DNA from: Escherichia coli
Lineage (GTDB): Bacteria; Pseudomonadota; Gammaproteobacteria; Enterobacterales; Enterobacteriaceae
Assembly: GCF_030013595.1 (NCBI RefSeq)
Contig: NZ_CP122772.1
Direction: 5' to 3' (one strand)
Length of the DNA stretch: 64,000 bases
Position numbers: made by a program. Every line of letters starts with the position of its first letter. The stretch's first letter is position 1. Positions 21,001-27,000 of the stretch are shown here, in pieces.

Positions 21001-24000
21001 TCAGTTGTTTTTCTGGCACGAGCATAGAACGACTCATCACCACACTGAATGGCAACCGATACTTCCTGGTATGCTTTTTCAGGCATGAACTGAACAAGAT
21101 AGTGTTGTGCGATCGCAAGGTAAACATTGCGCTCGTCGGTGCTGAGTGCGTTAACATCAGGCACACTGGCAGTCGGGATTATCGCAGTATGCGCAGTCAC
21201 CTTTGCACTGTTAAACGCCTTGCTTTTACGTGCGGAATCAATATCCAGCGACTGAGGAAATACTGATTTCAGGGCATCGATAACCTGCGGCGCTTCGCTG
21301 AATTGTTCATCAGAAAGATATGAGCAATCAGAGCGGTTATAAGTAATCGCTTTATATTTTTCACGTAATTGTTGCGTAATATCCAGCGTTTTTTGTGCCG
21401 TCATTTTGAACTTTTTGTTCATGTATTGCTGGAGTCTGACCAGGTTAAACGGCAACGGCGCAGCCGTTTTTTTATCATCAGTTGCTGCCGCTTCAACGGT
21501 AGCCGGTTTTCCTGCAAGGGATGCAGCCGTTCCGTCTGCCCACGCTTTATCGAGTAGGCAGCCTGGCGGCTGCGGCTTGTCATGGTCTGGAATTACCGTT
21601 ATAAAAAAAGATAATGTCATTGTCTTTCAGGTAGTTATATGGCCCGTTCAGCTAAACCCCGTAAACGCAAACCCGCACCACAAAGAAGCAAACTTCCCCG
21701 CTATGTTGTGAAACTTCATCCGGATGATTTTTTTGACGAAGAAGACGCTGAAGTTCTGCGCTTTGATAATTTTGACGATGCCGTTGAGTGCTGCGCTGAC
21801 CTGGGTATTCCGTTCTTTCTGGATGCAGGAAACAAAAAGCTGGTCTTCTGGTTTGTTCGTGTCGATGACGAAGGGTATCCGGAAATAGCCCGCTGTACGG
21901 AGCGGGAGTTTGCAACCATTCTTGCCGGTATCAGTGCCGGTGGTATGTACTGCCCGGAATGCGGCACAGTTCACTGGCCGGATGGCGTTACCCCACCCGT
22001 CTGATGCTTCCCCGTTTTGCCGATATTTTTCAGCAGGGTAACCGCTGGCTTAACTGGCTGGAGAAACAGCCGGAAGGTTCAGTGCGTCCGGTGGTGACTG
22101 AGTCAGTGACAAAAATCATGGCATGCGGGACCACGCTGATGGGCTACACGCAATGGTGCTGTTCGTCACCGGACTGTTGCCACACCAAAAAGGTCTGCTT
22201 CCGGTGTAAAAGCCGCTCCTGTCCGCACTGCGGGGTGAAGGCTGGCGCACAGTGGATACAGTATCTGCTGAGCCTGGTCCCCGACTGCCCGTGGCAGCAT
22301 ATTGTGTTCACACTTCCCTGCCAGTACTGGTCCCTGGTGTTCCACAACCGGTGGTTACTGGCAGAGATGAGCCGCATTGCAGCGGATGTGATACTGGAAA
22401 TCTGCCATCAGACAGATGTGGAGCCGGGGATATTCACGGTGATCCACACATGGGGGCGTGACCAGCAGTGGCATCCGCATATCCATTTATCGACAACTGC
22501 CGGTGGTGTGACGTCGGGCCACACCTGGAAAAATCTTCATTTTTACGCGCGTAAGGTGATGAGCATGTGGCGTTACCGGATAACGCGGCTACTGTCCCGG
22601 AAATACCCGGAGCTGGTAATACCGGATGAACTGGCAGTGGAAGGAAACAGCAAACGGGACTGGAATCGCTTCCTGGACACGCATTACCGCCGCGGCTGGA
22701 ATGTCAACATATCCAGGGTGATGGATAACGCCACACATGTGGCGGTGTACTTCGGCTCTTACCTGAAAAAGCCACCGGTGCCGATGAGTCGGCTGGAGCA
22801 TTATGCCGGTCAGGATGAAATCGGTCTGCGTTACAACAGTCACCGTACAAAACGGGAAGAATACCTGTTGATGAGTGGAGATGAGTTCATGGAAAGGTTC
22901 TCCTGGCATGTAGCAGATAAGGGGTTCCGTATGGTGAGGTACTACGGTTTCCTGAGTCCGGTGAAGCGCCGCTTACTGGAAGAAGTTGTGTACGTCATAA
23001 CGGAGACGGTGAGAAAAACGGCGATGCAAATCAGGTGGAGAGGGATGTATCAGAGGTTACTGAAGGTTGACCCGCTGAAGTGCATTCTGTGCGGAAGTCA
23101 GATGCGTTTTACGGGGCTGAAGCGGGGTTACCGACTGGCAGAGCTGGTCCTGATGCATGAGCGACTGGCACGACAGCAGGTGTGCGGCTGAGAGCCGCAG
23201 AGGGGAAGTTGCGTCCATTTTACCGGAAACGGAGCAAAAAACCGCCATTCATACCCTGTATCAATCAGTGTCATCCTGTTTAATAGTCGTTTCCGCTCAT
23301 ATGGTGCACAAGGGGTGTTGAAGAAACATCCGTTTTGTGGTGCTTTTTTAGTCTTTTGGGGATTTAAATTCCTATCGATGAACAGAAAGAACCTGGTAGA
23401 AGGTTACATTGGTTTGCTCATAGCCCCATGATGATACAAAGATATCACCAACAGAGACAGTATCATTTTTAAAAGTTAATACTTTCATTTTTAGCTCCCG
23501 CCCAGCTTGGGCTCTGGATGAAAGAGAATCTGTTTCCCTTTCCTGTGTTTTATTATACCTGCATTTGCAGGTATGGCAAGTTATTTTTTTACCAGCCTGT
23601 AAGACGGATGCATATTTGCTAATAACAATAAATACTGATATTCACCAATAGATAAAGAACGACTGGCCTTACCTGCACTTTCTTTCATCTGCCAGGAATT
23701 CAGTTGATAACCAAAAATATCAGCAGCTTCTTTAAGAGTAAGACCTGCCGCAACCCGCGCATTCTTTACTTCTTCAGGTGTAGGTTTATTCTGCATTTTC
23801 ATCCCCTTTTGTCAGACAATCACACAAAACCCCATTATCCAGAAGCATCAATGATGCCAGGTTGAGTTTTTCGTCCATTATCAATTTTCTTACTGTTTTC
23901 CTGCTTTTAGTTTTATCAATCGTCTTAACATATTTTAAGGCGTGAAAAACCGTATCCCCATCTTCATCCATCGTTCTGATTACATAGGAGTAATTACCTC

Positions 24001-27000
24001 TGTTTTTCTTAATTATCTTATCTTTATCCATATTATTCCTCATAACTAAAAAAGGGGCTTAATGCCCCTTTTTATCTATAACACGGTATGTAACCCTGTT
24101 TCCTGTGTAAATAAACGCGCTAACTGATCACAATAGATATTATCGAATCTTGAAATATCTTTAACTTCAACACCACGTACACGAGAAAATTTCACCTGGT
24201 ACGTATCAGTAAAATCCAGTTTAATTTTTACTAAGTTGATGCCTTTCATTGCAAAATTTGACGGCAAACGGAAAGTTAACCCACACTCACCGTTTTCATC
24301 AAAGTAAGAAAAACTTTTAGCACCAGTCATAACAATAAAACGATTACCACCAAGTTGACGTAAAATCTCTGTGGCTACAGATTTAGCATAGTTTTGCATT
24401 TTTAACCTCCCGCCCACTTTGGGCTCTGGATGAAAGAGAACCTGTTTCCCTTTCTTGTGTTTTATTATACCTGCATTTGCAGGTATTGCAAATTTTTAAT
24501 GCTCTCGCTCTGACTGTAAACAGTCAATCATTTGATGATTAATCTTAGCGCAAATCTGCGATCTGATAGACTTCGCTGCTTTCCCTTCTTCCAACGGCAA
24601 TAACGAGTAAAACGACTTTCTCATCAATGACTTGGTATACAAGTCTGTAGCCAGATGCACGAAGTTTGATCTTATAGCGATCAGCATGACCATGTAACCG
24701 GGCTGCGGGTACGCGTGGATTTTCCAGCCGTTCTGCCAGTTTCTTTTTGAATTGTTCACGGATGGTGTGGCCGAGTTTCTGCCATTCCTTCAGTGCTCTA
24801 CGGTCAAAAGCCAGTTCATAGGTCATCCAGGTTAACCTTCACAATTTCCGGGTTTTTCATGCGCTCATCAGCAACAGCGTTTAACTCAGCATCTTCAGCG
24901 AGTTCCCGATAGTAGGCGTAAAGTTTTGGTGGAACGCAATAGAACGCCGGTTCGTTTCGGTTCAGGATCGCAACAGCGTCCCCTTCACCTTCAGCTACGG
25001 TTCCCATAGGATTTTTTTTCAGGTCAGTAATACTGGCCGCTGTGGTTGTCAGAATTTGATAGCTCATAAGCCCTCCGCTTGTCTCATTGGCATAATAGCA
25101 TCTTTAAAAGCACTCTTAAAAGTGCTTATGTTGAGAAAAACATCAGAACAGGTGAGATATGGCTCTTTCCGACATCGCCTTAAAACGCTCTGTAACGCGT
25201 TCTGAGCGTTTTTTCCCGTTTCGTTGTGGTCAGCTACGGTTTAACGGTTTTTAACGCCGCTCAACGCTTTTTAGCGGCCTTGTTGCTGTGATCTGTTGCC
25301 ATGATCCGGATAGGAGTTCAATCTTGATCAAAATTTCCTCAAGGCAACGACTGTTTTGTAAATACCCTCTAAAACGCGCTGTATCGCATTCTGAGCGATT
25401 TTTTCGATTTCGCATGGTTTCACCATGGTTGTATCGAACGAAGCGGCAGAAAGCGATTCAGGGCTTCTCAGTGAAAGATCCAAAAAGGATCAATCAACGG
25501 ATCGTATGAGCTGAACTCTTCTGGTTTTGAGAAAGGAGACACCGCTCGCCGCAGCCGAACGACCGAGTGTAGCGAGTTAGTGAGCGAGGAAGCGGAATAG
25601 CACAGGGATTACATTAGGCACTTACGCACAGTGGTCAAAATATGAGCATATTGTTTTTATGTGTGGTTGTCTTGGTTCAGAGTGATCTGTCCTCCGGGTT
25701 TACGCAAAGTTATCCACAGGCGCTGTGAATTTTTTGTTTTGAGCAGAGTTATCCACAGATTTTTTGTGTTTTTTTGCTTATTAAACTTCTTGTTTTTAAG
25801 ATCTTAAATGTAGATCGGTAGATCTACTTTAAGATCTTTAACTTACTTTAACTTATTCTGCAAACATTGTGCCAGCTTTTTTATCAATAATTTCATTAAG
25901 ATAGGTGTTGTTTTTTGTCGCCTCAAAATGAAAGGTGGATGGGTACGCACTGAAAGGTGGATAGGTACGCACTGTAATTTTCATGAAAGGTGGATGGCTG
26001 CGCACTGAAAGGTGGATGGGTACGCACTGAAAGGTGGATGGGTACGCATTTTTCTGTTTTTATTCAGATATTCGTATCTTTGTATCTTCATTTCTTTAGT
26101 TCTTTATAGTGCTCTAATTTAACGTATGACGTTAAAAGGTGGATACCTGCGCATTTCTATCATATTGAATATAAATGATAAAAATTCTTTCATGTGATCA
26201 GTGTTTTGGTGGAAATACATAAGGTGGATAAACCACTTTACATATTTCCGCCTTTGTGGTTATGATTTCACCATCAGAACTTAAAAACCACAGGTAATGT
26301 ATGAACTTACTGAGCGTTACAAAGAAAACAAAAATTCGCCACAGAAATGAAATTAACAGCACATTCTCATCGTTGCCTTTGTCTGCCAGAAGAATTTTGT
26401 TTATGGCTATGGCGCAGATTGATTCACGTGAAGAGTTATCTGAGGGGGCAACCTTTCGTATTACGGCTCGGGAATATGCATTTATCGCTGATATTGATGT
26501 AACAGGTGCTTACCGGCAGTTGAAAGAGGGGGCAGAAGAACTTCAGGCCAGTGTTATTCGCATTCCTCGAAATCAACTTCTCACACCTCAGGGCAATCAA
26601 AGCTCTGGACATACGAAGAAGAGAGGTAAATTACCTTCTGATGCAGTCAGGCTTATGAACCTGACTGCGTTTTGTGATTATGTTGAAAGTGAAGGATATA
26701 TTGATATTGCTTTTTCACATGTCATTGAGCCATATATCACGATGTTAAAGGATTCTTACACTACTCAGGTTTTGATATCGTCTGTAAGACTCGCTGATCA
26801 AAATTCAAATATGCTTTATCAGTTTATCAGGAAACAATACAGCAGTGGTAAAAAGACATTTTTCGACATTGAAGTAGATGTATTAAAGGATGAACTTGAA
26901 TTATTCAGAATAGATAATGGCGAAAAAGTTTACCTTTATCAGAATTTTAAGGATTTTAATAAGGTTTTTCTGCAAAAAAATATTGAAAAAATAAATCAAT

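What the first reader, a model, noticed from the sequence alone, without database searches (positions are those of the whole stretch)
23492..24490. Duplicated promoter-operator module with a perfect 20-bp palindrome in the spacer, flanking a coupled 85-aa + HTH gene pair
Two about 85-bp near-identical elements (23492-23580 and 24406-24490) each contain, on the minus strand, TTGCCA/TTGCAA (-35), a 16-bp spacer holding the perfect palindrome ATACCTGCAAATGCAGGTAT (23555-23574; 24467-24486), and TATAAT (-10), followed by a GGAGG RBS. One drives the 108-aa gene and the 85-aa + XRE-HTH pair; the other drives a small gene now cut by IS91 copy B. The HTH protein is the obvious candidate repressor. The toxin-first, HTH-second overlapping layout resembles HigBA-type modules, but the 85-aa protein matches no toxin family I recognise.
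Basis: partly seen in the sequence, partly recalled or inferred. Interest (0 to 1): 0.6.

Follow-up and report, generated by a model that had tools for sequence, protein, structure and literature searches.

The report
Repeated plasmid promoter-operator with its repressor
Two copies of a strong promoter with a built-in repressor-binding site control small genes of an IncX1 plasmid fragment; the same switch, with different binding-site sequences, recurs in the plasmid families that spread NDM, MCR-1 and OXA-48 resistance, and it looks like an early-gene shut-off circuit, not a toxin-antitoxin pair.

Summary
A 98-nt unit occurs twice (24400-24497 and 23488-23585, minus strand, 91% identical). Each has a near-consensus sigma-70 promoter. 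A 20-bp dyad (9+2+9, not a perfect palindrome) fills the spacer and overlaps the -10. A 60-nt leader with two hairpins ends at the Shine-Dalgarno sequence.

The segment is IncX1 backbone between stbDE and oriT/taxA, cut here by IS91.

The same unit (2-4 copies) occurs in IncX3, X4, X5, IncI2 and IncL/M plasmids, next to a homologue of the 73-aa HTH. Dyad sequence changes with the HTH recognition helix while symmetry is kept. In IncL/M the HTH is a tandem duplicate and the site is asymmetric.

The HTH's nearest solved relatives are the MqsA DNA-binding domain and Aca10. Aca10 binds ATACGCTCA-T-TGAGCGTAT over its own promoter.

Best reading: an Aca-like autorepressor placed last in its operon shuts off two or more leading-region operons after a burst on entry.

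The toxin-antitoxin idea is not supported. The 81-85-aa protein has no toxin fold (four strands plus a helix, weakly PC4/Pur-like). The pair has no promoter of its own. The operator also serves unrelated operons.

No experimental description was found. I rate it a new member of a known kind, of moderate interest.

The parts
24400..24497 (-). Module copy 1 (P1). -35 TTGCAA at 24491..24486, 16-nt spacer, -10 TATAAT at 24469..24464, 60-nt leader, Shine-Dalgarno GGGAGG at 24411..24406. It drives the 107-aa gene, the 81-aa gene and the HTH gene.
24467..24486 (.). Operator dyad O1: ATACCTGCA-AA-TGCAGGTAT (9+2+9). It fills the promoter spacer, overlapping 1 nt of the -35 and the TAT of the -10.
24432..24454 (-). 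Leader hairpin 1 of P1 (9-bp stem, 5-nt loop).
24408..24430 (-). Leader hairpin 2 of P1. GCCCA-AAG-TGGGC lies at 24424..24412; the outer pairing UCC/GGA reaches into the Shine-Dalgarno sequence.
24076..24399 (-). First gene of the P1 operon, 107 aa (called YahA in some sources). Function unknown. The model is an alpha-beta5-alpha sandwich.
24048..24073 (.). Terminator-like hairpin AAAAAAGGGGC-TTAAT-GCCCCTTTTT between the 107-aa and 81-aa genes. It may attenuate expression of the two distal genes.
   Evidence: read; the sub-threshold Rfam matches (E 0.26-0.75) overlap this hairpin; the scan did not list it
23786..24031 (-). 81-aa protein (85 aa if started at 24043; called YajB in some sources). 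Basic N-terminal four-stranded sheet plus an acidic C-terminal helix. Its 3' end overlaps the HTH gene by 17 nt.
23581..23802 (-). 71-73-aa XRE-type HTH protein (called YajA in some sources), the proposed repressor. Its stop codon abuts the -35 of P2.
23488..23585 (-). Module copy 2 (P2). -35 TTGCCA at 23579..23574, -10 TATAAT at 23557..23552, leader, Shine-Dalgarno GGGAGC at 23499..23494.
23555..23574 (.). Operator dyad O2, identical to O1.
23372..23488 (-). Truncated first gene of the P2 operon: 37 codons of a 109-aa gene, then IS91-derived sequence.
21959..23191 (+). Transposase gene of the IS91 copy whose end, at about 23381, cut off the rest of the P2 operon and the IncX1 oriT/taxA side.

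Best explanation
The two 98-nt units are copies of a plasmid regulatory cassette. Each is a strong sigma-70 promoter whose spacer is a 20-bp dyad operator, followed by a structured 60-nt leader that ends at the Shine-Dalgarno sequence.

The repressor is the small XRE-type HTH protein (71-73 aa). It is related to the MqsA DNA-binding domain and to Aca10, and it is the last gene of the first operon. As a dimer it would bind the dyad, which overlaps the -10 and touches the -35, and exclude RNA polymerase. It would thereby repress its own operon (P1) and the next operon (P2).

In intact IncX plasmids these operons lie 0.3-2.4 kb from the predicted nick site of oriT. They sit on the side that enters a recipient first and point towards oriT. 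The likely biological logic: in a cell without repressor the promoters fire, giving a burst of small 'establishment' or anti-defence-type proteins; the accumulating HTH then shuts them off.

Shown here: the anatomy, its conservation in seven plasmid lineages, the maintained symmetry with changed sequence, the match between operator type and recognition helix, and the position relative to the oriT repeat.

Inferred: DNA binding itself, repression, the timing of expression, and the function of the cargo proteins.

The 81-aa protein is not a toxin by any test available here. It is either cargo placed directly upstream of the regulator, like an acr gene upstream of aca, or a nucleic-acid-binding partner.
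For: 1. Promoter quality: 11 of 12 and 10 of 12 matches to consensus with 16-nt spacers. The dyad is unique to these two sites in the window.

2. Conservation: a profile of the unit finds 2 copies in IncX1, X3, X4 and X5, 4 in IncI2 R721, 2 in each of two other IncI2 plasmids, and 2-4 in IncL/M-type plasmids (2 in pOXA-48, 4 in an IncL/M-like plasmid). Each is next to an HTH homologue of 42-62% identity. None is found in IncN R46.

3. Dyad symmetry is kept while the sequence changes:
- IncX1: ATACCTGCA-AA-TGCAGGTAT
- IncX3/X5: TACCATCA-TW-TGATGGTA
- IncX4: ATACGAC-TTAAAG-GTCGTAT
- R721: ATAGGTCAG-TT-CTGACCTAT
- other IncI2: ATACATCTA-AA-TAGATGTAT
In the 19-module alignment, 5 of the 7 predicted dyad pairs show changes on both sides.

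4. One R721 copy carries a symmetric double change, G..C to T..A.

5. Operator type tracks the recognition helix. There are five helix variants and five dyads. Identical helices (X3 and X5; the two other IncI2 plasmids) go with identical dyads.

6. In IncL/M the HTH is a tandem duplicate in one chain and the spacer site is not palindromic.

7. The left arm's ATA mirrors the TAT of the -10, although no promoter requirement applies to the left arm.

8. Homology: the family profile matches the MqsA HTH domain at E 2e-6 and Aca10 at E 4.6e-5 over nearly its full length. Aca10 is a dimer that binds ATACGCTCA-T-TGAGCGTAT overlapping the acrIC7-acrIC6-aca10 promoter (PMC9410881).

9. Differences between P1 and P2 fall in the -35, one base 5' of hairpin 1, the hairpin loops and the end of the Shine-Dalgarno sequence. 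None falls in the dyad, the -10 or the stems.

10. oriT: an inverted repeat followed by TATCCTGC lies between the last small gene and taxA in IncX1 and IncX3. It is on the strand that is the template for these genes.
Against: - No binding, reporter or expression data exist for this family in the literature I could search.
- The nick site is assigned only by resemblance to the MOBP consensus, recalled from memory.
- IncX plasmids carry a second, inverted oriT copy (window 27660-27745). From that copy the transferred strand would be the coding strand.
- In this window the cassette sits in a mosaic IncF plasmid and is cut off from taxA/taxC. Its 'leading-region' role here is therefore historical.
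- The HTH is also related to an antitoxin DNA-binding domain (MqsA).
- The 81-aa gene and the HTH gene co-occur strictly: 462 and 462 plasmid records at 90% identity or more.
- The function of the conserved leader hairpins is unexplained.
Confidence: 0.7

Rival explanations
1. The 81-85-aa protein and the HTH are a type II toxin-antitoxin pair, toxin first as in HigBA or MqsRA. The HTH antitoxin would autoregulate through the palindrome, and the second copy would be incidental.
For: - The two genes overlap by 17 nt and both are small.
- The HTH profile matches the MqsA DNA-binding domain at E 2e-6. Some database entries label relatives as Xre-like or MqsA antitoxins.
- The two genes co-occur strictly in IncX1-type records, 462 and 462.
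- The pair lies next to the stbDE (RelE/ParE) module.
Against: - No toxin family matches in Pfam, NCBIfam, PADLOC or PHROGs.
- The HTH lacks the N-terminal toxin-binding domain of MqsA; only the DNA-binding domain aligns.
- The pair has no promoter of its own and sits behind one to two other genes in every lineage.
- The operator is reused at 2-4 promoters that drive unrelated genes.
- In IncL/M the upstream partner is unrelated (hhalign probability 0.2%) and the HTH is duplicated in tandem.
Confidence: 0.12
2. The units act mainly on single-stranded DNA after transfer, as a single-strand promoter or priming signal. The three hairpins (dyad, leader hairpin 1, leader hairpin 2) would fold on the transferred strand. 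The HTH would be unrelated to them.
For: - Three consecutive hairpins fold on the template strand (DNA folding z-score -2.6 to -2.8).
- The units lie next to oriT.
- In IncX4 and IncI2 each unit is preceded by a further 300-nt G+C-rich repeat.
- Single-strand promoters are known in leading regions of F and IncI1 plasmids (PMC12672017 and PMC11541004).
Against: - The -35 and -10 hexamers are not inside stems, so folding does not rebuild a duplex promoter.
- The dyad is lost as a hairpin in IncL/M, exactly where the HTH became a tandem protein.
- Dyad type follows the HTH recognition helix.
- The 300-nt repeat gave only IncX4/IncI2-size records among the listed blastn hits, with nothing pointing to F or IncI1 Frpo/ssi regions. 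It does not fold into one long hairpin.
Confidence: 0.06
3. The repeat is a neutral recent duplication and the promoter and palindrome are chance look-alikes.
For: Only two copies exist in the window and they are 91% identical.
Against: - The architecture is kept in seven plasmid lineages whose unit sequences have diverged strongly (mean column identity 58%).
- There are compensating changes in the dyad and in leader hairpin 2.
- Differences between the two copies avoid the dyad, the -10 and the stems.
Confidence: 0.02

Closest known systems
Aca10 and the acrIC7-acrIC6-aca10 operon of Pseudomonas citronellolis (PDB 7XI5; PMC9410881)
   Same: - Both are small single-domain XRE-type HTH proteins. 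Aca10 is 65 aa and aligns over nearly its full length (E 4.6e-5 with the family profile).
- Both are encoded last in an operon of small genes.
- The Aca10 dimer binds a 19-21-bp palindrome, ATACGCTCA-T-TGAGCGTAT, that overlaps its promoter. It has the same outer ATAC...GTAT and 9-bp arms as the IncX1 dyad.
   Different: - Sequence similarity is weak (E 0.022 for the single sequence).
- The centre is 2 nt here and 1 nt in Aca10.
- Here the operator is repeated at 2-4 promoters on conjugative plasmids.
- No upstream gene here is a known anti-CRISPR.
- The conserved two-hairpin leader was not checked against the Aca10 operon.
MqsA antitoxin of E. coli (C-terminal HTH domain)
   Same: It is the best solved-structure match to the HTH profile (E 2e-6). 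MqsA also autorepresses through a palindrome in its own promoter; that point is from my own knowledge.
   Different: - MqsA has an N-terminal zinc-binding domain that binds the toxin MqsR. That domain is absent here.
- The protein upstream of the HTH shows no MqsR or RelE-like fold.
kil-kor regulon of IncP plasmid RK2: KorC and the klcA, kleA and kleC promoters (from my own knowledge, not tested here)
   Same: A small repressor is the last gene of the first regulated operon (klcA-klcB-korC). A palindromic operator overlaps the -10 of several promoters that drive small genes of poorly known function.
   Different: No sequence comparison was made here. The plasmid group is different.
ArdK and the CUP-controlled regulon of IncN pKM101/R46, and ArdK of IncW R388 (PMC9723621)
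   Same: Repeated conserved upstream promoter units drive several leading-region operons, all repressed by one plasmid-encoded regulator.
   Different: - ArdK belongs to the KorA family and binds direct repeats (PMC9723621).
- R46 contains no copy of the unit studied here and no similarity to the IncX4/IncI2 repeats.

Membership tests
Type II toxin-antitoxin module (HigBA/MqsRA layout) | The upstream protein belongs to a recognised toxin family or fold | tested here: not met
Type II toxin-antitoxin module (HigBA/MqsRA layout) | A self-contained two-gene operon with its own autoregulated promoter | tested here: not met
   No promoter-like site lies directly upstream of the pair. The pair is distal in 3-4-gene operons in all lineages. 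The operator also serves other operons.
Type II toxin-antitoxin module (HigBA/MqsRA layout) | The antitoxin has a DNA-binding domain plus a toxin-neutralising region | tested here: inconclusive
   The HTH domain is present. There is no extra domain, and only about 20 residues lie beyond the HTH core.
Type II toxin-antitoxin module (HigBA/MqsRA layout) | The toxin arrests growth and the antitoxin neutralises it | not testable with these tools
   Needs expression experiments.
Aca-type autorepressor of an anti-defence operon | Small HTH protein homologous to a described Aca family | tested here: inconclusive
   Aca10 at E 0.022 (single sequence) and 4.6e-5 (profile); Aca3 at 2.3e-4. The MqsA HTH scores better (2e-6).
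Aca-type autorepressor of an anti-defence operon | Inverted repeat overlapping the promoter of the operon that encodes the HTH | tested here: met
Aca-type autorepressor of an anti-defence operon | The HTH gene is at the 3' end, directly after small cargo genes | tested here: met
Aca-type autorepressor of an anti-defence operon | The upstream gene inhibits a defence system | not testable with these tools
Sigma-70 promoter | -35 and -10 hexamers close to consensus with a 16-18-nt spacer | tested here: met
   11 of 12 and 10 of 12 matches with 16-nt spacers. Promoter activity itself was not tested.
Frpo/ssi-type single-strand promoter | A long hairpin on the transferred strand that rebuilds a duplex -35/-10 | tested here: not met
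   The DNA fold of the template strand gives three short separate hairpins, with the hexamers unpaired.
IncN/IncW ArdK-CUP regulon | KorA-family ArdK repressor and CUP repeat sequence | tested here: not met
   No unit copy or repeat similarity in R46. ArdK is KorA-family according to PMC9723621.
Leading-region gene set of a conjugative plasmid | Located 3' of the nick on the transferred strand, with genes oriented so that this strand is the template | tested here: inconclusive
   An inverted repeat plus TATCCTGC lies on the expected strand next to taxA in IncX1 and IncX3. The nick site is inferred from a consensus. A second inverted oriT copy exists.

The most novel reading that the evidence does not exclude
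One uncharacterised switch may govern the early genes of IncX1-X5, IncI2 and IncL/M plasmids, the main carriers of NDM, MCR-1 and OXA-48. It consists of an Aca10/MqsA-like repressor with lineage-specific operators.

The switch may have a second layer. The conserved two-hairpin leader that ends at the Shine-Dalgarno sequence, and the conserved 81-aa partner with a PC4/Pur-alpha-like fold (four strands plus a helix), could act together on RNA or on the incoming single strand. That would give combined transcriptional and post-transcriptional control of plasmid establishment.
Probability: 0.2. Interest if true: 0.65.

Novelty: new member of a known kind. Interest (0 to 1): 0.45.

Why it matters
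If the circuit works as proposed, the repressor and its 20-bp site give a simple genetic handle on genes expressed first when these resistance plasmids enter a new cell. Derepression or operator decoys could be used to test the cost and the role of these genes.

As with aca genes in phages, the HTH could also serve as a marker for finding new plasmid anti-defence proteins among the small unknown genes upstream of it.

The lineage-specific operators would additionally explain how related plasmids in one cell avoid cross-repression, or fail to avoid it.

Tried and rejected
- **Family searches.** Pfam, NCBIfam, PHROGs and PADLOC on seven proteins of the region gave only families of unknown function and weak HTH hits.
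- **Rfam** on 23200-25200 gave nothing for the leader. It gave only sub-threshold hits (E 0.26-0.75) overlapping the intergenic hairpin.
- **Link to IncN CUP repeats.** blastn and the unit profile against R46 found nothing.
- **Link of the IncX4/IncI2 300-nt repeat to F or IncI1 Frpo/ssi.** The listed blastn hits were all of IncX4/IncI2 size, and the fold is not a single long hairpin. This was left open.
- **Is the pOXA-48 159-aa protein a fusion of the 81-aa protein with the HTH?** No. It is two HTH domains in tandem.
- **Is the IncL/M upstream 81-aa protein a relative of the IncX 81-aa protein?** hhalign probability is 0.2%.
- **Sequence profile of the 81-aa family against PDB sequences.** No meaningful hit.
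- **Formal pair counting for leader hairpin 2.** This was not possible because loop lengths differ and the 5' arms fall out of register. A script was used instead.
- **Literature searches** by protein accession, IncX plus leading region, and pOXA-48 plus leading region found no study of this regulon.

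
Full report
**What is in the window**

A 98-nt direct repeat lies at 23488-23585 and 24400-24497. The copies are 91% identical and 912 nt apart. Read on the minus strand, each copy contains:
- a -35 hexamer (TTGCCA or TTGCAA);
- a 16-nt spacer;
- a TATAAT -10, giving 11 of 12 and 10 of 12 matches to consensus;
- a 60-nt leader;
- a GGGAG Shine-Dalgarno sequence and an ATG.

The dyad ATACCTGCA-AA-TGCAGGTAT fills the spacer. It shares one base with the -35 and three bases (TAT) with the -10. 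It is two perfect 9-bp arms around a 2-nt centre, not a perfect 20-bp palindrome. With up to three mismatches it occurs nowhere else in the 64 kb; 0.01 matches are expected by chance.

Copy 1 (P1) precedes three genes:
- a 107-aa gene (24076-24399);
- an 81-aa gene (23786-24031; 85 aa from an upstream ATG that lacks a Shine-Dalgarno sequence);
- an overlapping 71-73-aa HTH gene (23581-23802).

A terminator-like hairpin (24048-24073) separates the first gene from the other two (read). Copy 2 (P2) begins right after the HTH stop codon. It precedes the first 37 codons of a 109-aa gene that is cut by an IS91 copy at about 23381.

**Where it comes from**

The segment is 99-100% identical to many enterobacterial plasmids (1309 records). 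In the intact IncX1 plasmid NZ_CP022072 all genes lie on one strand, in this order: stbD, stbE, P1, 107 aa, 81 aa, HTH, P2, 109 aa, 59 aa, 49 aa, 90 aa, an intergenic region, ddp1/taxA, the relaxase, actX, and the pilX genes.

The closest record to the window is a mosaic IncF plasmid. In it this IncX1 piece is flanked by IS91 copies and carries the same truncation.

**Comparison with other plasmids**

tblastn with the HTH finds 4242 plasmid records but only one phage record. Identity to the IncX1 protein is:
- 59% in IncX3;
- 62% in IncX5;
- 49% in IncX4;
- 42-48% in IncI2;
- 45% in IncL/M, including pOXA-48.

In every lineage examined the HTH gene is the last gene of an operon of small genes. 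A homologue of the 98-nt unit stands in front of that operon and of one to three further operons. A profile of the unit finds no copy in IncN R46.

The units align from the -35 to the ATG with 58% mean column identity. The dyad differs between lineages but stays symmetric:
- IncX3/X5: TACCATCA-TW-TGATGGTA
- IncX4: ATACGAC-TTAAAG-GTCGTAT
- R721: ATAGGTCAG-TT-CTGACCTAT
- other IncI2: ATACATCTA-AA-TAGATGTAT

Five of the seven predicted dyad pairs show changes on both sides. One R721 copy carries a symmetric double change.

The dyad type follows the HTH recognition helix. There are five helix variants and five dyads, and identical helices go with identical dyads. In IncL/M plasmids the protein is two HTH domains in one chain, and the spacer site is not palindromic.

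Taken together, this is the pattern expected of an operator and its cognate dimeric repressor. It is hard to explain otherwise.

**The repressor's relatives**

The single sequence hits Aca10 (PDB 7XI5) at E 0.022 and the MqsA C-terminal domain at E 0.21. The family profile hits the MqsA HTH domain at 2e-6, Aca10 at 4.6e-5 over nearly its full length, and Aca3 at 2.3e-4.

Aca10 is a dimer that binds ATACGCTCA-T-TGAGCGTAT overlapping the promoter of the acrIC7-acrIC6-aca10 operon (PMC9410881). This is the same outer ATAC...GTAT and the same arm length as the IncX1 dyad, and the same operon layout.

**The 81-aa protein**

It has no family match. Its family is small: 28 representatives among 1.8 billion proteins.

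The protein co-occurs strictly with the HTH in IncX1-type records, 462 and 462. In IncL/M, however, it is replaced by an unrelated small protein.

**The leader**

All seven leaders folded show two hairpins. The second hairpin ends 0-1 nt before the Shine-Dalgarno sequence in 19 of 19 units, against 5% of shuffled leaders. It occurs as four stem types, each perfectly complementary: GCCC(A)/(T)GGGC, GCCGC/GCGGC, GTCC/GGAC and GCGCC/GGCGC.

In IncX1, X3 and R721 an outer pairing reaches into the Shine-Dalgarno sequence. No Rfam family matches. The leader's function is unknown.

**Position relative to oriT**

Between the last small gene and taxA, both IncX1 and IncX3 carry a 24-nt inverted repeat followed directly by TATCCTGC. 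From my own knowledge, this resembles the MOBP nick consensus YATCCTG|Y. It lies on the strand that is the template for the small genes.

On that reading the operons are the first DNA to enter a recipient and point towards oriT. This is the orientation reported for leading-region genes in general (PMC11541004).

On single-stranded DNA the unit forms only three short hairpins and does not rebuild a duplex promoter. It is therefore a conventional double-strand promoter.

A second, inverted copy of the oriT repeat lies in the window at 27660-27745. This agrees with my recollection that the IncX prototype R6K has two oriTs.

**Conclusion**

Its idea that the HTH is the repressor is well supported. 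Its toxin-antitoxin reading is not.

The best explanation is an Aca-like autorepressor circuit that limits expression of two or more leading-region operons to a burst after entry. Confidence is 0.7 for the repressor-operator mechanism and lower for the timing.

I found no experimental description of this regulon. It fits a known kind of system: Aca/acr operons, KorC in the IncP kil-kor regulon, and ArdK with the CUP repeats in IncN. I therefore rate it a new member of a known kind. Two features remain unexplained: the conserved leader and the 81-aa partner.

Noticed in passing
window 27660-27745 (minus strand): A second copy of the IncX oriT repeat: an inverted repeat followed by TATCCTGCATCGC. 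It is inverted relative to the copy next to taxA in intact IncX1 plasmids. It overlaps the start of a ddp3-like gene (27691-28116) whose N-terminus resembles that of the ORF at the taxA/ddp1 locus.
   Followed up: partly
window 24048-24073: A bidirectional terminator-like hairpin (AAAAAAGGGGC-TTAAT-GCCCCTTTTT) lies between the 107-aa and 81-aa genes. The consensus scan did not list it, probably because the A and T runs can pair as part of the stem. It could lower expression of the 81-aa and HTH genes relative to the first gene.
   Followed up: partly
L004 1684-1983 and 3764-4063 (IncX4); L006 943-1242, 1851-2150 and 3849-4148 (IncI2 R721): In IncX4 and IncI2 each promoter-operator unit is preceded by a further G+C-rich repeat of about 300 nt (94-99% identical between most copies within a plasmid; one R721 copy only 63%). 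The listed blastn hits are all of IncX4/IncI2 size, and it has no similarity to R46. It does not fold into one long hairpin. Its function is unknown.
   Followed up: partly
L005 3243-3722 (pOXA-48) and L008 3728-4225: In IncL/M plasmids the HTH is a tandem duplicate (159-165 aa, two HTH domains). The matching promoter spacer, TATATGGCTCATTAGACGTAT, is asymmetric. Its right half resembles the IncX4 half-site.
   Followed up: partly
window 25931-26156 and 26301-27137: Six 22-bp iterons (AAAGGTGGATGGGTACGCACTG) lie upstream of a RepB/Pir-type initiator gene. This is the IncX1 replication origin carried inside a mosaic IncF plasmid.
   Followed up: no
window 15363-16595, 21959-23191, 32205-33437, 56803-58035, 58632-59864: Five ORFs of 410 aa, the same length as the IS91 transposase at 21959-23191, suggest five IS91 copies. 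One cuts the topoisomerase III gene side (about 21620) and one cuts the P2 operon (about 23381). Only the 21959-23191 ORF was inspected.
   Followed up: no
window 25181-25223 and 25370-25412: A 43-nt direct repeat (84% identical, 189 nt apart) lies between stbD and the origin. It is also present in the IncX1 reference. It is unexplained.
   Followed up: no
L009 4063-4365 (IncI2 plasmid pDETEC35): A gene annotated CcgAII lies downstream of one of the units. CcgAII is a CUP-controlled gene of IncN plasmids. Cargo genes therefore seem to be shared between regulons that use unrelated repressors.
   Followed up: no
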